Positions 33,826-39,537 are shown, counted from the first letter of the stretch. The stretch: DNA of 64,000 bases from an uncultured Planctomycetales bacterium (GCA_964464755.1 CAYXGZ010000006.1:17445-81444); one strand, 5' to 3'. Notes: a model not told the origin generated them from the letters alone. Made by a program: numbers and translations.

Positions 33826-33884
33826 CGGCGGAGATTGTAGCGGAAGCTGCATGGGGCATGGAGCATTGGGATTGGAGGATTCCG

Positions 33885-33927
33885 GATGCCCGATGCCGGT
33901 ACCCAGATGTCGCATGCCGGATGCCGG
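33885..33927. repeat. 15-nt imperfect direct repeat (GATGCCCGATGCCGG / CATGCCGGATGCCGG), each a doublet of ATGCC(C/G)G
   Basis: The copies lie at 33885-33899 and 33913-33927, with 13 of 15 positions identical. They sit in the non-coding left border of the islet. Confidence 0.6.
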
Positions 33928-34067
33928 AGACGGGCTGTCGAGTGCTGGAAAGGTTAGGCACCAACGATCGGAGCCCACGGATCGGCTAGAACCTCCACCG
34001 GGCGACCTTGGATTCCAATACGCTCTGATGTCAAACAAAGGTACATTCTGGCGCAGGAGGAGGACTT

Positions 34068-35102
34068 GTGGCTTGGACTGAGCGCCGGTTCACCAAGGGA
34101 GAGATCGACAGGGCTGGGGACTTGTTCCGAATTGAGCAACCTCTTGAAGACGGATTGGTCAGAGCATACGAGGTTCTTGACAATTGGCGTTCAGCTCACA
34201 GCTTCCCCCTCAATGCGATGCAGATCTGGCTTCGGCGTAACGCACGGTCCGTAAGTAAGACTGCCCTGATCGCCCAGCGTCTCAAGCGCGTTGTCTCCAT
34301 CGTTTTGAAGCTACGGCGCTTCCGTGACATGAAATTATCTCGGATGCATGATCTCGGGGGCTGTCGCGCCGTGATGACGAACGTTGACGAAGTCCGAAGG
34401 GTCGAGGCGCAATTCAAGAAGTCTGAGAGCAGACACGAACTCGCAAGATGCGACGACTACATTTCGGCTCCTAAGGATGATGGCTACCGGAGCATCCACC
34501 TGGTGTACAAGTACAAGTCTCAACAAACGCCTGCCTATGACGACCAGCGTATTGAGATTCAACTGCGATCTAAGCTCCAGCACGCATGGGCAACTGCGGT
34601 CGAAACTGCGGACACCTTCAATCGGGAGAACTTGAAGGGTGGCCAAGGGTCTGAGGACTGGAAGCAGTTCTTCAGACTCGTGAGTGCGTCCTTTGCCGCA
34701 TTGGAGGGCACGCCAACCGTTGCCAACACGCCGGGCGACCCTAAAGCTCTCAGGGCGGAAATCGGCGCGCTCGACTACAGCCTCGGAGCTAGTAGGGTGT
34801 TAAACGCATTCCGAGTGATGGACTACTACAAGGAGAAGCACGGGCAAGATGGAGATAGGTTCTATCTGCTGGTGCTCGACTCTGAAACGAACCGAATTGA
34901 GGTCAAGAGATACCGCAAGGACGAGCAGAAGAAAGCGACCGCGGACTACCTAACTGAAGAACGTAGGATACGGGACAACCCCAAGGGCCAAGCGGTACTG
35001 GTGTCAGTAGACTCCTTGAGGTCTCTCAAGCGCGCCTATCCCAACTATTTCGGCGACACTACGTTCTTCCTCCAGCAATTCAAGCGCGTCATGAACTACT
35101 AG
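34068..35102 (+). CDS. RelA/SpoT-domain nucleotidyltransferase (small-alarmone-synthetase/toxSAS-like) with uncharacterised C-terminal domain
   Basis: GTG start with AGGAGGAGGA SD at 34055-34064. Synthetase-core motifs MHDLGGCRAV, DYISAPKDDGYRSIHLVYKY and RIEIQLRSKLQHAWATAVE. No HD, TGS or ACT domains. Residues from about 190 to 344 could not be placed. Confidence 0.85.
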   Translation: MAWTERRFTKGEIDRAGDLFRIEQPLEDGLVRAYEVLDNWRSAHSFPLNAMQIWLRRNARSVSKTALIAQRLKRVVSIVLKLRRFRDMKLSRMHDLGGCRAVMTNVDEVRRVEAQFKKSESRHELARCDDYISAPKDDGYRSIHLVYKYKSQQTPAYDDQRIEIQLRSKLQHAWATAVETADTFNRENLKGGQGSEDWKQFFRLVSASFAALEGTPTVANTPGDPKALRAEIGALDYSLGASRVLNAFRVMDYYKEKHGQDGDRFYLLVLDSETNRIEVKRYRKDEQKKATADYLTEERRIRDNPKGQAVLVSVDSLRSLKRAYPNYFGDTTFFLQQFKRVMNY

Positions 35103-35126
35103 CTAGAAGCCGCTGATCGCACGCGC

Positions 35127-35486
35127 CTACTTCTTGACCTGCTGTATGGCGCGCTGGATCAAGGCTTCGATCTTCGGCTGAATGCGCTCGACCAGCGCAA
35201 ACTGCGTCATGTATAGGCTGAAGACGATGTGATTCCCTTCCTCCGAGTCCATGTACTTGAGTAGGGCATCCAGGTACTTGGGCCGGAACTTCTCTTCCAT
35301 CACGTCGCCGTAGAGCTTGGCCAGTTCCATCGCTCCTTCGCGCGCGATTTGGCCGTGTTCGGCTTCATCGAGCTTTCCGACGAAAGCCGGAGTCGCCCGT
35401 AGCTTTGCGAACTGGCTCAACAACAAGTCTCGGTACATCTGCTCCATCCCGAGTTGCTGCATGAAGCTGGCCACGCGCGCATCCAT
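35127..35486 (-). CDS. small all-helical hypothetical protein (weakly DUF2059-like)
   Basis: ATG at 35486 with GAGGGAGGA SD; the track start at 35501 is a TTG. Lower-GC codon usage like its neighbour. The segment KFRPKYLDALLKYMDSEEGNHIV resembles the DUF2059 pattern. Family assignment is weak. Confidence 0.6.
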   Translation of the reverse strand: MDARVASFMQQLGMEQMYRDLLLSQFAKLRATPAFVGKLDEAEHGQIAREGAMELAKLYGDVMEEKFRPKYLDALLKYMDSEEGNHIVFSLYMTQFALVERIQPKIEALIQRAIQQVKK

Positions 35487-35507
35487 GTCATCCTCCCTCA
35501 AGGATCG

Positions 35508-35584
35508 TGGTACCCCCGGACGGGTTCGAACCGTCGGCCTGCGGTTTAGGAAACCGCCGCTCTATCCAATTGAGCTACGGGGGC
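35508..35584 (-). tRNA. tRNA-Arg (anticodon CCT), CCA encoded
   Basis: Minus-strand sequence GCCCCCGTAGCTCAATTGGATAGAGCGGCGGTTTCCTAAACCGCAGGCCGACGGTTCGAACCCGTCCGGGGGTACCA folds by hand into a cloverleaf. It has a 7-bp acceptor stem (G1-U72 wobble), D-arm GCTC/GAGC, anticodon stem GCGGT/ACCGC with loop TTCCTAA, and T-arm GACGG/CCGTC with loop TTCGAAC. Confidence 0.9.
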
Positions 35585-35593
35585 GCGACGGCG

Positions 35594-35599
35594 ATTATA
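35594..35599 (-). promoter_or_regulatory. -10 box TATAAT 9 nt upstream of the tRNA 5' end
   Basis: The minus strand reads CGTATAATCGCCGTCGC followed by the tRNA. I found no convincing -35 element. Confidence 0.4.
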
Positions 35600-35677
35600 C
35601 GAGGGCGTCACGAATCGCCGCTCCACTTCGGGCTAATTGCTAACTGCTGATTGCTTCCCTGCTCTTCCCGCTCGCTG

Positions 35678-36427
35678 CTACCCGGCCGCGCACAGCACTT
35701 CCGGCGGCTCGCCCACGGCCACGATCGCGCCCAGGTGGACGCTGCGCACCCCCGGCTCCGCGCTCACCGTCAGGCCGCCCGCCGCCGGCTTCAGCCGCGT
35801 CGGCCGGTTCGTCGCCAGCACCTGCAGCGCCAGCACCTCGCCCGCCTGCAGCGCGTAGCGGCCCGCCAGCCGCGCCTCCACGTAGCACGGGATCCTCGGC
35901 TCCTCGTGCATCCGCCGGCCGATGCCGTGCCCGCAGTACTGCCGCACCGGTTCCGCCCCCTCCGCCTTCAGCACCCGCTCGATGCGCTCCGACAGCACCG
36001 ACACGTCCGCCCCCGGCCGCGCCGCGTCCACCGCGTCCTTCAGCGCCTTCCCCGCCGTCGACACGAGCACCGCCGCCTCGCCCGGCAGCGTCCCGACCCC
36101 GTACGTGTGCGCCCAGTACGCGAAGTGCCCTTCGTCCGTGATCCCCAGCTGCAGCTTCAGCACGTCGCCCTCGGCCAGCGGGCGCGGCCCGGGCACGCCG
36201 TCGATCACCTCCTCGTTCACGGACGTGGTGATCGTCGCCGGGTAGCCCCGGTAGCCCTTGAAGGAGGACCGCACCCCGTAGGTCTCGACCAGGTCCGCCG
36301 CCAGCCGGTCCAGCGACGCGGTCGTCGCGCCCGGCTTCACGGCCCGCGCCAGGTCCCGCGCGATCTCGCGCAGCACCCAGGCCAGGTCCCGCATCCCGTC
36401 GAGCTCCTCCGGCGCGTAGACCGCCAT
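35678..36427 (-). CDS. methionine aminopeptidase-fold protein with substituted metal ligands (probable pseudo-enzyme)
   Basis: Collinear with type I MetAP (GYRGYP..., YCGHGIGRRMHEEP). The positions equivalent to E. coli D97, D108 and E235 read Q, Y and Q, and H79 reads D. Confidence 0.85.
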   Translation of the reverse strand: MAVYAPEELDGMRDLAWVLREIARDLARAVKPGATTASLDRLAADLVETYGVRSSFKGYRGYPATITTSVNEEVIDGVPGPRPLAEGDVLKLQLGITDEGHFAYWAHTYGVGTLPGEAAVLVSTAGKALKDAVDAARPGADVSVLSERIERVLKAEGAEPVRQYCGHGIGRRMHEEPRIPCYVEARLAGRYALQAGEVLALQVLATNRPTRLKPAAGGLTVSAEPGVRSVHLGAIVAVGEPPEVLCAAG

Positions 36428-36431
36428 GGGA

Positions 36432-37271
36432 TCAGCGCCGGCCCTGGCGGTACTTCGCCTGGTAGGACGTGAACCAGCTCGTCATGTACTCGAGCAGCTT
36501 CCGCTGCGCCGGGCTCAGCGCCCCGAAGACGATCCCGGTCGGGTGCCCCGTCGCGCCCGCGGCGGGCTCCTTCGACCACACGACCTGCCCCCCGGCCTCC
36601 AGCGTGTCGGCGAACTTCGTCAGGTGCAGGGTGAACTTCACGGCCGTCCCCACCGCGAGCTTCTCCGTCGCCAGCACCTGCGCGCCCTCGGCGTTCAGGC
36701 TGCTCACCGAGGCCAGGAGGTTGCGCGACCGGCCGATCCCCATGAAGCCCGACTTCGTCAGCGTCGCCGTGTAGTCGTGGACCGCGAAGTGCTCCTCGGG
36801 GGCCGCGGCCTCCCAGGGCGGCGCCGCCGTCGGCGCGGGCCGCGCCCGGTCCGACGGGTAGCGGTCCCGCACCGGCTCCGCCTTCCCCTGCGCCCCGCCC
36901 GCGAGGAACTTGTCGCGCTTGCCGATCGCCGTGAAGATCTCGTCCCACTTCACCCCGATCGTGATGCGCTGCTCGCCCTCCACCGTCGCCGTCTCCACCC
37001 AGCGCACGACGCCCCGCGCGTGGAAGAGGTCGTTCGTCGCCGTCTCGCGGATCTCCACCGTCAGGACCGTCCCCTTCTCGACCGCCTCGATGACGCCGAG
37101 CCGGGCCCCGCCCGAGCTCACGTCGAGCACCGCGATCGCCAGGTTGCGCCGGCCCCGGATGCTCCGCCCCTCCTCGACCCGGTAGCAGGAGACCGTGAAC
37201 CCCTCCGGCGTGCGCCGGTCGTGGCGCCGCGCGCTGCGGCCCGACGACGAGGGGGTGCGGTCCGTGGGCAT
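36432..37271 (-). CDS. tandem PilZ-domain protein (first domain canonical, second degenerate)
   Basis: RRHDRR (RxxxR) followed by DVSSGG (DxSxxG) in domain 1. Domain 2 keeps the beta-barrel pattern but lacks both motifs (SLNAEG). Confidence 0.8.
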   Translation of the reverse strand: MPTDRTPSSSGRSARRHDRRTPEGFTVSCYRVEEGRSIRGRRNLAIAVLDVSSGGARLGVIEAVEKGTVLTVEIRETATNDLFHARGVVRWVETATVEGEQRITIGVKWDEIFTAIGKRDKFLAGGAQGKAEPVRDRYPSDRARPAPTAAPPWEAAAPEEHFAVHDYTATLTKSGFMGIGRSRNLLASVSSLNAEGAQVLATEKLAVGTAVKFTLHLTKFADTLEAGGQVVWSKEPAAGATGHPTGIVFGALSPAQRKLLEYMTSWFTSYQAKYRQGRR

Positions 37272-37347
37272 GCCTCCATTCTAGCGATTTCGGGGAACCT
37301 GCGGCGCGGGCCCGCGTCCAAGCGGGCGTACCCTCAAGGAGGCCGCC

Positions 37348-39537
37348 ATGAAGCGCCGCTGGACCACCCCCGTGCTCGCCGCGTACCTCGTCCTCTACTC
37401 CGCCGCGATCGCGCTGGCGTGCCGCGTCGTCATCGACGAGGACCGTTTCCAGCAGCGCCCCGAGCGCGTGCAGGCGATCGTCCACAAGTCCTTCCGCGTC
37501 GCCGCGACGGTGAGGGACCAGGTCGCCGACGTCGTCGTGAAGCCCGTCTTCCACAACCCGAACCCCTACGTCGTCGAGGGGACCTACTTCCTCTCGATCC
37601 CCGCGGGCGCCCAGGTCCGCGACTTCAAGATGAAGGTCGGCGACAAGGTCATGGAGGCCGAGCTCCTCGACTCGACCAAGGCCCGGCAGATCTACGAGTC
37701 GATCGTCCGCCGCCAGCGCGACCCCGCGCTCCTCGAGCTCGTCGGCACCCAGATGCTCAAGTGCTCGATCTTCCCCATCCAGCCGCGCTCCGACATCGAG
37801 GTCACCGTCGGCTACACCACGCTTCTGGCCAACGAGGGCGGGCTGCTCTCGCTCGATGTCCCCTTCTCCAACCAGTTCGGCGGCAACTACCCGGTCCCGG
37901 ACATTTCCGTGGCCGTGGACATCGAGTCGAAGGCGGGCCTGAAGAACCTGTACTCGCCCACGCACGCCGTGGACATCCGCAGGAAGGACGACCACAAGGC
38001 GATCCTCTCCTGGGAGGCCCGCAACTACGACGTCCGCAAGTCCTTCAAGGTCTTCTGGCAGGTGAACGCCGACGAGGTCGGCTGTTCCATGCTCACGTAC
38101 CGCACGGGCGCCGAGGACGGCTACTTCCTCATGCTGGCGCAGCCGAAGGTCCAGGTCGAGGGCGCGAAGGTCCTGCCGAAGGACGTCGTGTTCGTCTTCG
38201 ACCGCTCCGGCTCGATGGCGGGCGAGAAGATGGCCCAGGGCAAGGAGGCGCTCAGCTTCTTCATCAACTCGCTGAACGACGGCGACCGCTTCAACATCGT
38301 GGACTTCTCCAGCGAGGCGTCGGCCCTCTCGGAGGGCCTCGTCGCCGCGACGAAGGAGGAGCGGGCCCGGGCGCTGAAGTACGTCGAGGCGATGAAGGCC
38401 GCGGGCGGGACGAACATCTCCGAGGCGCTCGAGAAGGGCCTCGCCCTGCTCGGCGACGACCCCGCGCGGATCCCGATGGTTCTCTTCGCGACCGACGGCC
38501 TGCCGACGGTCGGCGAGCAGCGGATGGAGAAGATCGTCGAGACGGCGCAGGCCAAGTCGGGCCGCGCGCGCGTCTTCGTCTTCGGCGTCGGGAACGACGT
38601 GAACACGCAGTTCCTCGACCGGCTCGCGGAGCAGTGCCGCGGGGCCCGGGACTACGTCGCGCCCGAGGAGAAGATCGAGGCCAAGGTCGGCGCGCTGTTC
38701 GAGAAGGTCTCCAACCCGGTCCTGGCCGACGTGGCCGTGGAGCTCGGGGGCGTGAAGGTGAAGGACGTCTACCCGAAGCGGATGCCGGACCTCTTCAAGG
38801 GCCAGCAGGTCGTCGTCTTCGGCCGCTACGAGGGCGGCGGGGCCGCTGGCCTCAAGCTCTCCGGCTCGGCGGGCGGCGAGAAGAAGGAGTTCCGCTACGA
38901 CGTGCACCTCGCGGCCGCCGATCCGAAGAACGACTTCATCCCGCGGCTCTGGGCCGCGCGCAAGGTCGCGTTCCTCGTCGACTCGATCCGCATGGGCGGC
39001 GCCGCGAGCAAGGAGGTGATCGACGAGATCATCGCCCTCGGCAAGAAGCACGGCATCGTGACGCCCTACACGTCCTTCCTGATCACGGAGGAGGACGGGG
39101 CGCCCGGCGAGATGGGCCTGCGCGCCGAAGAGAAGCTGCGGCGGCTGGCGGACGACGCCGCGAAGTCGGGCGGCCGGCACGGCGCGCCCGCGGCGCCGGC
39201 GGCCCGCGGGGCCAGCGGCGACCTGAAGGGCGACCGGGACGCCGAGAACGCGGAAGGCGCCGAGCGGGGCCTTTCCGGCGCCACGAAGTCCGAGGGCGGC
39301 GGCCGGCAGGCGAAGATGGTGGGCACGAAGACCTTCATCCTGCGCGAGGGCGTCTGGACGGATCTCACCTACGACCCCGCGATGAAGGACAAGATCGTGA
39401 AGGTCGAGTTCATGTCCGAGGAGTACCTGAAGCTGGCGGCCGCCGACGCCGACCTGGCCAAGTGGCTGGGCGCGGGCGAGCGGGTGCTGGTTGTCCTGGC
39501 GGACAAGGTGCTCGAGGTCGTCGTGACGGCGAAGTGA
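37348..39537 (+). CDS. VIT domain + von Willebrand factor A domain protein
   Basis: N-terminal TM/signal segment. VIT-like region (VEGTYFLSIPAGAQVRDFKMKVGDKVMEAELL). vWA MIDAS motif DRSGSM...GGTNISEAL...TDGLPT. Confidence 0.9.
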   Translation: MKRRWTTPVLAAYLVLYSAAIALACRVVIDEDRFQQRPERVQAIVHKSFRVAATVRDQVADVVVKPVFHNPNPYVVEGTYFLSIPAGAQVRDFKMKVGDKVMEAELLDSTKARQIYESIVRRQRDPALLELVGTQMLKCSIFPIQPRSDIEVTVGYTTLLANEGGLLSLDVPFSNQFGGNYPVPDISVAVDIESKAGLKNLYSPTHAVDIRRKDDHKAILSWEARNYDVRKSFKVFWQVNADEVGCSMLTYRTGAEDGYFLMLAQPKVQVEGAKVLPKDVVFVFDRSGSMAGEKMAQGKEALSFFINSLNDGDRFNIVDFSSEASALSEGLVAATKEERARALKYVEAMKAAGGTNISEALEKGLALLGDDPARIPMVLFATDGLPTVGEQRMEKIVETAQAKSGRARVFVFGVGNDVNTQFLDRLAEQCRGARDYVAPEEKIEAKVGALFEKVSNPVLADVAVELGGVKVKDVYPKRMPDLFKGQQVVVFGRYEGGGAAGLKLSGSAGGEKKEFRYDVHLAAADPKNDFIPRLWAARKVAFLVDSIRMGGAASKEVIDEIIALGKKHGIVTPYTSFLITEEDGAPGEMGLRAEEKLRRLADDAAKSGGRHGAPAAPAARGASGDLKGDRDAENAEGAERGLSGATKSEGGGRQAKMVGTKTFILREGVWTDLTYDPAMKDKIVKVEFMSEEYLKLAAADADLAKWLGAGERVLVVLADKVLEVVVTAK

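What the first reader, a model, noticed from the sequence alone, without database searches (positions are those of the whole stretch)
34068..35102. RelA/SpoT-type nucleotidyltransferase fused to an unplaced C-terminal domain: candidate single-gene toxSAS-like defence/toxin module
Seen:
- The 344-aa product has an apparently intact small-alarmone-synthetase core. The motifs are MHDLGGCRAV (strand with the catalytic Asp), DYISAPKDDGYRSIHLVYKY (GYRS-x-H nucleotide motif) and RIEIQLRSKLQHAWATAVE (E-I-Q-x-R motif with the catalytic Glu).
- It has no HD hydrolase, TGS or ACT domain, so it is not a housekeeping long Rel.
- Residues from about 190 to 344 (...FYLLVLDSETNRIEVKRYRKDEQKKATADYL...VLVSVDSLRSLKRAYPNYFGDTTFF...) match nothing I can name.
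- The gene has its own strong SD (AGGAGGAGGA), a GTG start, foreign codon usage, and sits next to a tRNA.

Established:
- Stand-alone RelA/SpoT enzymes on mobile DNA include the toxSAS toxins (FaRel, PhRel, CapRel). These make (pp)pApp or pyrophosphorylate tRNA CCA ends.
- CapRel carries its own antitoxin/phage sensor as a C-terminal fusion.

Inference: this could be an analogous fused, autoinhibited enzyme with a different sensor domain.
Basis: partly seen in the sequence, partly recalled or inferred. Interest (0 to 1): 0.75.

Follow-up and report, generated by a model that had tools for sequence, protein, structure and literature searches.

The report
Fused CapRel toxin-antitoxin defence gene
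The gene is a divergent but intact member of the already characterised CapRel family, single-protein anti-phage toxin-antitoxin systems that block translation by modifying tRNA. It sits on a tiny foreign DNA islet beside a tRNA gene, so it is a new example of a known kind, not a new kind of system.

Summary
The ORF at 34068-35102 (+, 344 aa, GTG start) is real and carries an intact RelA/SpoT core.

- **Match to CapRel-SJ46:** the protein aligns over its full length with PDB 7ZTB/9ERV (phmmer E=1.4e-40, BLASTP 31% identity). An AlphaFold model (pLDDT 87) has CapRel as its top fold hit (TM 0.70).
- **C-terminus alone:** the last 155 residues on their own hit only CapRel.
- **Functional residues:** the ATP-site arginines, the G-loop tyrosine, the YXXY autoinhibition motif and all but one of the docking residues defined in CapRel-SJ46 are conserved (A341 is Ser here).
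- **Shared profiles:** both proteins fall in PADLOC PDC-S33 and phrog_4773.
- **Foreign origin:** GC3 is 0.67 against 0.98-1.00 in host genes, on a ~1.7 kb islet next to tRNA-Arg(CCT).
- **Distribution:** the family is patchy across many phyla and is found on temperate phages and plasmids.

The most likely function is a phage-triggered, self-inhibited tRNA pyrophosphokinase that acts by abortive infection. The trigger is unknown, because the sensor subdomain is the most divergent part. Verdict: new member of a known kind, low interest.

The parts
33830..35505 (.). Low-GC foreign islet of about 1.7 kb, between an aldo/keto reductase gene and tRNA-Arg. It carries two genes.
   Evidence: GC about 0.55 against 0.72 in the flanks. 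GC3 is 0.67 and 0.79 for the two islet genes against 0.98-1.00 for host genes. No att-like direct repeat and no integrase were found.
34055..34064 (+). Shine-Dalgarno-like AGGAGGAGGA, 3 nt before the GTG start.
   Evidence: Read directly from the sequence.
34068..35102 (+). Fused CapRel-family toxSAS gene (344 aa plus stop codon).
   Evidence: ORF. PADLOC PDC-S33 E=6e-121 over the full length. phrog_4773 E=3e-101. PDB 7ZTB/9ERV E=1.4e-40. Foldseek TM 0.70.
34068..34637 (+). N-terminal toxin (toxSYNTH / RelA-SpoT nucleotidyltransferase) domain, aa 1-190. It contains R71 (34278-34280), R100 (34365-34367) and the G-loop Y140 (34485-34487).
   Evidence: PF04607 at aa 70-176. R79/R116/Y155 of CapRel-SJ46 map to R71/R100/Y140. 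These positions are invariant in 40 homologues.
34638..34817 (+). Helical linker / anchor-1 region, aa 191-250.
   Evidence: Helices 196-213, 225-239 and 241-250 in the model. 25% identity to SJ46. Entropy 1.62 bits.
34818..35006 (+). Pseudo-zinc-finger-like sensor subdomain, aa 251-313. It has beta-beta-alpha-beta topology and no cysteines.
   Evidence: Strands 263-271, 276-283 and 307-313 with helix 284-300. This is the most variable segment (entropy measured over aa 251-305: 1.97 bits) and is 22% identical to SJ46 over aa 251-305.
35007..35099 (+). C-terminal anchor-2 with the autoinhibitory YXXY motif: Y324-P-N-Y327 at 35037-35048.
   Evidence: LKRAYPNYFGDT matches LKKAYPNYFGST of 7ZTB. 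Y352/Y355 map to Y324/Y327. This is the most conserved segment, 0.89 bits.
35127..35486 (-). Co-resident 119-aa gene of unknown function (ATG start, MDARVA...), convergent with the CapRel gene. Probably unrelated cargo of the islet.
   Evidence: No Pfam or PADLOC hit. Only 4 other cluster representatives in 1.84 billion proteins. Absent from 160 CapRel-homologue loci.
35508..35584 (-). tRNA-Arg(CCT), the probable insertion landmark for the islet.
   Evidence: ARAGORN. Rfam RF00005, 68 bits.

Best explanation
The gene encodes a fused, single-polypeptide type II toxin-antitoxin system of the CapRel subfamily of toxic small alarmone synthetases. By analogy with CapRel-SJ46, the N-terminal RelA/SpoT (toxSYNTH) domain would transfer pyrophosphate from ATP to the 3'-CCA end of tRNAs. 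That blocks aminoacylation and translation. In uninfected cells the C-terminal region folds back, and its YXXY motif (Y324, Y327) inserts between R71 and R100 to block the ATP-adenine site. During infection, a phage-made protein would bind the variable pseudo-ZFD and anchor surface and hold the enzyme open. Translation would then shut down and the infection would abort. The gene arrived by horizontal transfer on a ~1.7 kb islet beside tRNA-Arg(CCT) in a high-GC, probably Planctomycetes-related, host. What is shown here: family membership, fold, conservation of catalytic and autoinhibitory residues, foreign origin, and carriage of the family by phages and plasmids. What is inferred: tRNA as the substrate, the closed/open switch, a phage-protein trigger, and abortive infection.
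For: Sequence and fold:
- Full-length alignment to CapRel-SJ46 (7ZTB/9ERV) at E=1.4e-40, against 3e-9 for RelQ. BLASTP gives 31% identity, E=2e-47.
- AF2 model with pLDDT 87.3 and pTM 0.85. Its top PDB fold hits are 7ZTB and 9ERV (E=1e-23, TM 0.70 over ~358 columns), while RelP/RelQ cover only the core (TMq 0.40-0.45).
- The C-terminal 155 aa alone hit only CapRel in the PDB (E=1e-5), give BLASTP E=3e-11 against the SJ46 C-terminus, and match the C-terminal half of PDC-S33 at E=1.2e-37.

Residues and profiles:
- Residue map: A77/R79/R116/Y155/V338/L339/A351/Y352/Y355 of SJ46 correspond to A69/R71/R100/Y140/V310/L311/A323/Y324/Y327. The roles of these residues are taken from PMC9712102.
- Reciprocal profile test: CapRel-SJ46 itself hits PDC-S33 (7e-87) and phrog_4773 (1e-144). 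The window protein hits the same models at 6e-121 and 3e-101.
- The conservation pattern matches the published one: the pseudo-ZFD is the most variable part and the YXXY anchor the most conserved (compare).

Origin and distribution:
- Foreign origin by GC3.
- At least 585 relatives in reference genomes of many phyla, 180 on IMG/VR viral contigs, and 108 plasmid records.
- Neighbours on viral contigs are repressors, Ant, ParB, endolysin and tail genes.
Against: - No biochemical or phage data exist for this protein.
- It is only 31% identical to the characterised enzyme, and only 22-25% in the sensor region, so substrate and trigger are extrapolated.
- A341 of SJ46 is Ser here, and Q94, otherwise invariant in the 39 homologues, is His.
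- I could not inspect model coordinates, so the closed, docked state is not verified. The 9.8 A rmsd to the open crystal form is merely compatible with it.
- Chromosomal homologues mostly sit among housekeeping genes, with only occasional defence neighbours. In this sample, defence-island enrichment is weak.
Confidence: 0.8

Rival explanations
1. The architecture is the same, but the chemistry differs. The toxin domain would synthesise toxic (pp)pApp and deplete ATP, as FaRel and Tas1 do, or make (p)ppGpp, instead of modifying tRNA.
For: The RelA/SpoT fold supports all of these reactions, and the substrate cannot be read from sequence with these tools. Identity to the tRNA-modifying CapRel-SJ46 core is only 38.5%.
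Against: The closest characterised relative by a wide margin is the tRNA pyrophosphokinase CapRel (E=1e-40). Nucleotide-producing RelQ and RelP score about 1e-9, and no FaRel or Tas1 structure appears at E<=10. CapRel is described as a translation-inhibiting toxSAS subfamily (PMC9712102).
Confidence: 0.1
2. It is a relic or domesticated gene. The islet would be a decayed mobile-element remnant, and the protein would no longer work in phage defence, being inactive or repurposed as a stress-responsive growth regulator.
For: No integrase and no att repeat remain. The gene sits among housekeeping genes, as most chromosomal homologues do. There are 19 departures from the >=85% family consensus.
Against: The ORF is intact and full length with a strong ribosome-binding site. 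All catalytic and autoinhibitory residues are kept. GC3 of 0.67 in a host at 0.98 indicates recent arrival with little amelioration. The departures from consensus are conservative, and one (G329) is shared with the active CapRel-SJ46.
Confidence: 0.07
3. It is a housekeeping small alarmone synthetase of the RelQ/RelP/RelV type that makes (p)ppGpp for the host's stringent response.
For: It contains PF04607 and has weak partial similarity to YjbM/RelQ.
Against: The NCBIfam YjbM equivalog scores 48 bits against a cut-off of 320. The protein has an extra 155-aa CapRel-type C-terminus. Its codon usage is foreign. Its distribution across phyla is patchy, the best database hit is only 49% identical, and the family is carried by phages and plasmids.
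Confidence: 0.02

Closest known systems
CapRel-SJ46 (Salmonella phage SJ46; PDB 7ZTB, 9ERV), the prototype fused CapRel toxSAS toxin-antitoxin defence protein
   Same: Single-ORF architecture: toxSYNTH domain, then helical anchor-1, pseudo-ZFD and anchor-2 with YXXY. R79/R116/Y155/Y352/Y355 and most docking residues are conserved. Both share the PADLOC PDC-S33 and phrog_4773 profiles. It is the top sequence and fold hit.
   Different: Only 31% identity overall, and 22-25% in the sensor region. The protein is 29 residues shorter: it lacks the 8-residue insert after the first helix of the core and has a much shorter beta-hairpin loop in the pseudo-ZFD. The residues that contact the SJ46 triggers (L270, L276, L280) are not conserved. 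The host is a high-GC environmental bacterium, and the gene is on a chromosomal tRNA-side islet, not on a P1-like prophage.
CapRel-Ebc (Enterobacter chengduensis) and CapRel-Kp
   Same: Same fused family. They show that the C-terminal region sets phage specificity and that triggers differ between homologues: T7 Gp0.4 together with FtsZ for CapRel-Ebc (PMC13423816, listed; chimera experiment in PMC9712102).
   Different: I did not compare sequences directly. The trigger of the window protein is unknown.
Bicistronic CapRel/ATcapRel (Mycobacterium) and PhRel/ATphRel (phage Phrann gp29/gp30)
   Same: Homologous toxin. The antitoxin is homologous to the fused C-terminal region (PMC9712102; PMC7229694).
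   Different: In those systems the toxin and antitoxin are separate genes. Here they are one polypeptide, and there is no adjacent antitoxin gene.
Housekeeping SAS enzymes RelQ/RelP (PDB 5DEC, 6EWZ and others)
   Same: Same catalytic core fold (TMt 0.65-0.79 over ~180-200 residues).
   Different: They have no C-terminal antitoxin/sensor region. They make (p)ppGpp, are non-toxic and are vertically inherited. Sequence similarity is only E~1e-9.

Membership tests
Fused CapRel (toxSAS subfamily; PADLOC PDC-S33) | RelA/SpoT (toxSYNTH) nucleotidyltransferase domain at the N-terminus. | tested here: met
   PF04607 E=1.5e-17. Core fold matches CapRel, RelQ and RelP.
Fused CapRel (toxSAS subfamily; PADLOC PDC-S33) | ATP-adenine-coordinating arginines (R79, R116) and the G-loop tyrosine (Y155). 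| tested here: met
   They map to R71, R100 and Y140, which are invariant in the 40-sequence alignment.
Fused CapRel (toxSAS subfamily; PADLOC PDC-S33) | C-terminal antitoxin region homologous to CapRel/ATcapRel: helical anchors plus a cysteine-less zinc-finger-like beta-beta-alpha-beta subdomain. | tested here: met
   The C-terminal 155 aa alone hit CapRel only (PDB E=1e-5), give BLASTP E=3e-11, and match the C-terminal half of PDC-S33 at E=1.2e-37. Model topology: E263-271, E276-283, H284-300, E307-313. There is no Cys in aa 251-344 (sequence).
Fused CapRel (toxSAS subfamily; PADLOC PDC-S33) | Conserved YXXY autoinhibition motif and docking-interface residues (A77, V338, L339, A341, A351). 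| tested here: met
   Y324-P-N-Y327; A69, V310, L311 and A323 are conserved; A341 is S313. The motif is invariant or >=90% conserved in the family.
Fused CapRel (toxSAS subfamily; PADLOC PDC-S33) | Single-ORF (fused) organisation with no separate cognate antitoxin gene. | tested here: met
   One ORF. The only islet neighbour is a convergent orphan that is absent from 160 homologue loci. Homologues are stand-alone.
Fused CapRel (toxSAS subfamily; PADLOC PDC-S33) | Falls in the same sequence profiles as the prototype (reciprocal test). | tested here: met
   The window protein and CapRel-SJ46 each hit only PDC-S33 in PADLOC, and both hit phrog_4773.
Fused CapRel (toxSAS subfamily; PADLOC PDC-S33) | [quoted passage not shown] | not testable with these tools
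   Biochemical property. Inferred from homology only (PMC9712102).
Fused CapRel (toxSAS subfamily; PADLOC PDC-S33) | N-terminal fragment is toxic and neutralised by the C-terminal fragment; activated by direct binding of a phage protein; confers phage defence. | not testable with these tools
   Requires expression and phage-challenge experiments.
Fused CapRel (toxSAS subfamily; PADLOC PDC-S33) | Closed (autoinhibited) conformation with YXXY docked in the ATP site. | tested here: inconclusive
   The model is confident and differs from the open crystal form by 9.8 A rmsd at TM 0.70. Coordinates could not be inspected.
Housekeeping SAS (RelQ/YjbM, RelP/YwaC) | Reaches the curated equivalog score; single-domain protein of ~200-260 aa. 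| tested here: not met
   NF053588 YjbM scores 48 bits against a cut-off of 320. The protein is 344 aa with an extra CapRel-type C-terminus.
Long RSH (Rel/RelA/SpoT) | HD hydrolase, TGS and ACT/RRM domains. | tested here: not met
   Only PF04607 was found. TIGR00691 scores 32 bits against a cut-off of 499.
Bicistronic toxSAS TA modules (FaRel, FaRel2, PhRel, PhRel2) | Adjacent co-oriented antitoxin gene. | tested here: not met
   No co-oriented neighbour. The adjacent ORF is convergent and is not associated with homologues.

The most novel reading that the evidence does not exclude
The sensor surface (anchor-1 plus pseudo-ZFD, aa ~225-305) is only 22-25% identical to CapRel-SJ46, has a much shorter beta-hairpin loop, and sits in a Planctomycetes-like host whose phages are essentially unknown. 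This member could recognise a class of trigger not yet seen for CapRel, for example a non-capsid phage protein or a host-phage complex. The co-transferred orphan 119-aa gene could modulate it.
Probability: 0.12. Interest if true: 0.5.

Novelty: new member of a known kind. Interest (0 to 1): 0.2.

Why it matters
It matters little on its own. It adds a deeply divergent, intact CapRel from an under-sampled, high-GC environmental lineage, where the best database relative is only 49% identical. It also illustrates that fused CapRel genes spread as minimal one-gene cargo into tRNA-side hot spots as well as on prophages. For annotation, the useful correction is that PADLOC's untested candidate PDC-S33 corresponds to the experimentally characterised CapRel family. 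Such genes should be labelled as fused CapRel toxSAS, not as 'GTP pyrophosphokinase' or 'hypothetical'. Its divergent sensor domain could serve in comparative studies of how pseudo-ZFD surfaces evolve new trigger specificities.

Tried and rejected
- **att repeat and integrase.** I looked for an att-type direct repeat of the tRNA 3' end at the left border and for an integrase. Neither was found, so the insertion mechanism remains unknown.
- **Empty site in relatives.** I looked via the flanking methionine aminopeptidase gene. The nearest relatives are only 57-66% identical. They keep the vWA-PilZ-map synteny but diverge immediately downstream and have no tRNA there. No clean comparison is possible.
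- **119-aa neighbour as partner or antitoxin.** It has no Pfam, PADLOC or meaningful PHROG hit. It is absent from 160 homologue loci. The family is tiny, and its one informative context has transposases and no RelA/SpoT gene. Rejected as a conserved partner.
- **RNA antitoxin or regulatory RNA in the islet.** Rfam finds only the tRNA.
- **Promoter and terminator scans.** Nothing above chance.
- **Exact-match look-up of the window protein.** No contig returned.
- **Literature search for 'PDC-S33'.** Nothing found.
- **Defence-island enrichment.** It could only be sampled, without a matched control: 140 neighbours from 35 genomes, reported as per-family counts.

Full report
**Observation**

It runs from 34068 to 35102 on the + strand, is 344 aa long, and starts with GTG. 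AGGAGGAGGA lies at 34055-34064, three bases upstream. The start is credible because the family consensus N-terminus, MxWxxPxYSKGQVDxAG, aligns with residue 1. Pfam detects a single domain, PF04607 RelA_SpoT (aa 70-176, E=1.5e-17), and no HD, TGS or ACT domain. NCBIfam models for RelQ/YjbM, RelA and SpoT score far below their cut-offs, for example 48 bits against 320. The composition claim also holds. GC falls to ~0.55 across ~33850-35600 in a ~0.72 background. Third-position GC is 0.672 for this gene, against 0.978-0.996 for five surrounding host genes. tRNA-Arg(CCT) lies at 35508-35584 on the minus strand.

**What the 'unplaced' C-terminus is**

A PADLOC scan gave one full-length hit, the single-gene 'phage defence candidate' PDC-S33 (positions 1-342 of 349, E=6e-121). 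PHROGs gave a full-length hit to phrog_4773 (E=3e-101).

A phmmer search of all PDB sequences returned 7ZTB and 9ERV ('RelA/SpoT family protein') at E=1.4e-40. The alignment spans query residues 5-336 and includes LKRAYPNYFGDT against LKKAYPNYFGST. The next hits, RelQ and RelP, were at ~1e-9 and covered only the catalytic core. Foldseek's descriptions give 7ZTB as 'the Salmonella tRNA pyrophosphokinase CapRel' and 9ERV as 'Salmonella CapRel bound to Bas11 Gp54'. The two source papers are PMC9712102 and PMC11578894.

An AlphaFold2 model built on 40 homologues is confident (mean pLDDT 87.3, pTM 0.85). Its best PDB fold matches are 7ZTB_B and 9ERV_A (E=1e-23, TM 0.70/0.71 over ~358 columns, 30% identity). 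RelP and RelQ reach TMq of only 0.40-0.45.

I tested the C-terminal 155 residues alone, to exclude the possibility that the catalytic core was carrying the match. CapRel was the only significant PDB hit (E=1e-5). BLASTP against the CapRel-SJ46 C-terminus gave E=3e-11 across the whole segment. The fragment matched positions 190-342 of PDC-S33 at E=1.2e-37.

The reciprocal test used the CapRel-SJ46 gene, fetched from phage SJ46. It hits the same single PADLOC model (E=7e-87) and the same phrog_4773 (E=1e-144). PDC-S33 is therefore the fused-CapRel family. The window protein scores higher on that model than the prototype does.

**Functional residues**

PMC9712102 defines the following residues in CapRel-SJ46:
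- the ATP-adenine-coordinating R79 and R116
- the G-loop Y155, where Y155A abolishes defence
- the YXXY motif Y352/Y355, which forms a 3-10 helix that plugs the ATP site in the closed state
- the docking residues A77, V338, L339, A341 and A351, whose substitution makes the protein constitutively toxic

A scripted pairwise alignment maps these to A69, R71, R100, Y140, V310, L311, S313, A323, Y324 and Y327. All are conserved except A341, which is Ser. R71, R100, Y140 and L311 are invariant, and A69, V310, Y324 and Y327 are at least 90% conserved, in the 40-sequence alignment.

The modelled C-terminal topology is strands 263-271 and 276-283, helix 284-300, strand 307-313, then short helices around the YXXY motif and a terminal helix. 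This matches the published description of a three-stranded sheet with a connecting helix and no cysteines. Residues 251-344 contain no Cys.

Identity to SJ46 by segment is 38.5% (aa 1-190), 25% (191-250), 22% (251-305) and 52% (306-344). Column entropy across homologues is highest in the pseudo-ZFD (1.97 bits) and lowest in the YXXY anchor (0.89 bits). This reproduces the published pattern, in which the sensor domain is the least conserved part.

Residues that contact the SJ46 triggers (L270, L276, L280) are not conserved. The beta-hairpin loop of the pseudo-ZFD is much shorter here. Trigger specificity is therefore expected to differ.

Nineteen positions depart from the >=85% family consensus. 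The changes are conservative and avoid the defined functional residues. One, G329, is shared with SJ46.

**Context in the window**

The gene lies on a ~1.7 kb low-GC islet between an aldo/keto reductase gene and tRNA-Arg(CCT). It shares the islet with one convergent small gene, 35127-35486 on the minus strand. I found no integrase, no att-like repeat, no known structured RNA and no convincing promoter or terminator motif.

The small gene is real. Four other ~120-aa representatives start with the same MDAR... sequence. The family is extremely rare, with no word-index hit other than itself among 5.8 billion proteins. It has no relative near any of the 160 CapRel-homologue loci. Its one informative context is transposase-rich, with no RelA/SpoT gene. 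I treat it as independent cargo.

The host is poorly sampled. Its methionine aminopeptidase has best hits of 57-66% identity, and one of them is labelled as a Planctomycetes MAG. Three relatives conserve the vWA-PilZ-map block but differ immediately downstream, and L169 has a phage integrase there. None has the tRNA. The site looks like a variable junction, but a true empty-site comparison was not possible.

**Distribution of the family**

- The word-index protein search found 5,430 homologues. Nearly all are 340-390 aa with full-length coverage, and the best non-self hit is only 49% identical.
- The reference-genome scan confirmed at least 585 relatives. The top 80 span Acidobacteriota, Proteobacteria, Bacteroidota, Cyanobacteria, Gemmatimonadota, Chloroflexota, Actinomycetota, Planctomycetota, CPR bacteria and several archaeal MAGs.
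- 180 relatives lie on IMG/VR viral contigs.
- 108 plasmid records carry one, 67 of them from E. coli.
- Among cultured phages, only SJ46 and a related coliphage carry a full-length copy.

In 35 IMG/VR loci, the two nearest ORFs on each side include repressors, anti-repressor Ant, ParB-like proteins, methyltransferases, endolysins and tail proteins. These are genuine temperate phages, and the gene sits in accessory positions.

In 35 chromosomal loci, the 140 nearest neighbours are mostly unrelated housekeeping genes. A few are defence genes, one or two members each: AbiLi, a type I specificity subunit, a type II methyltransferase, PDC-S13, PDC-S14, HmaC and HEC-09. Four are IS1595 transposases. 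Three individually inspected homologues are likewise solitary.

A tRNA lies within ~500 bp of the homologue in 6 of 60 genome loci. From the tRNA density in those same loci, roughly 1-1.6 would be expected. This rough estimate suggests that tRNA-side insertion recurs.

The family is not vertically inherited. It does not group with RelQ or RelV. It is associated with mobile elements. Its association with classical defence islands is modest in this sample.

**Mechanism**

By homology with CapRel-SJ46, the most likely mechanism has three steps:
1. The protein autoinhibits by docking its YXXY motif between R71 and R100.
2. A protein made during phage infection binds the pseudo-ZFD and anchor surface and traps the open state.
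3. The toxSYNTH domain then pyrophosphorylates tRNA 3' ends, which stops translation and aborts the infection.

Triggers known for other homologues are a major capsid protein, the small protein Gp54 of Bas11, and T7 Gp0.4 together with FtsZ. The trigger here cannot be predicted. The substrate, the switch and the defence phenotype are inferred, not shown.

The neighbouring tRNA gene is best read as an insertion landmark. It is not evidence about the enzyme's substrate.

**Comparison and novelty**

The protein passes every sequence- and structure-level membership criterion for the fused CapRel subfamily that could be tested. It fails the criteria for housekeeping SAS, long RSH and bicistronic toxSAS modules.

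It is a divergent new member of a known, experimentally characterised kind. The family is also already catalogued in PADLOC as a guilt-by-embedding candidate set and in PHROGs. What remains open is ordinary for this family: an unknown trigger and an unknown host phage.

Interest is therefore low (0.2). There is a small chance (~0.12) that the divergent sensor recognises a new class of trigger.

Noticed in passing
window 35127-35486 (-): A 119-aa helical protein (MDARVASFMQQLG...) shares the low-GC islet. It belongs to a very rare family: only 4 other ~120-aa cluster representatives in 1.84 billion proteins, and no Pfam, PADLOC or meaningful PHROG hit. One relative (L171) sits among transposases and unannotated small ORFs. 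Function unknown.
   Followed up: partly
window 33879-33928 (+), upstream of the CapRel start: An imperfect direct repeat, ATTCCGGATGCCCGA / ATGCCGGATGCCGGA, 35 nt apart in the 240-bp leader (D8). It could be an operator or a remnant of the insertion, or it could be chance.
   Followed up: no
L017, L019, L049, L054, L056, L058, L069, L070, L073: Nine of the 80 best genome loci carrying full-length CapRel-type genes (39-43% identity) are labelled as archaeal MAGs: Micrarchaeota, Woesearchaeota, Methanoperedens and Methanosarcinales. The passages of the toxSAS papers I read describe a bacterial distribution only, and PMC7229694 does not contain the word 'archaea'. I did not verify that these contigs are truly archaeal.
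   Followed up: no
L010, L012, L015, L023, L034, L058: CapRel homologues lie within ~70-500 bp of a tRNA gene in 6 of 60 genome loci, against roughly 1-1.6 expected. This mirrors the tRNA-Arg-side position in the window. L010 and L034 (both Longimicrobiales, both tRNA-Leu CAA) may be a single event.
   Followed up: partly
L167-L169, compared with window 35678-39537: The block VIT/vWA - PilZ - methionine aminopeptidase is conserved in the host's distant relatives, but the DNA just downstream of the aminopeptidase gene differs in every genome. L169 carries a phage-type integrase and hypothetical genes there. The junction appears to be a variable insertion site in this lineage.
   Followed up: partly
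PADLOC model PDLC04999 (PDC-S33); L166:2971-4089: The experimentally characterised CapRel-SJ46 hits PADLOC v2.0.0 only as the untested candidate 'PDC-S33'. The candidate name and the characterised system therefore refer to the same family. This is an annotation link worth recording.
   Followed up: yes
A2 neighbours: IS1595-family transposases (DDE_Tnp_IS1595 plus a Zn-ribbon domain) are among the two nearest ORFs on either side of the CapRel homologue for 4 of the 140 neighbour ORFs sampled from 35 chromosomal loci. This hints at one route by which the single gene moves.
   Followed up: no
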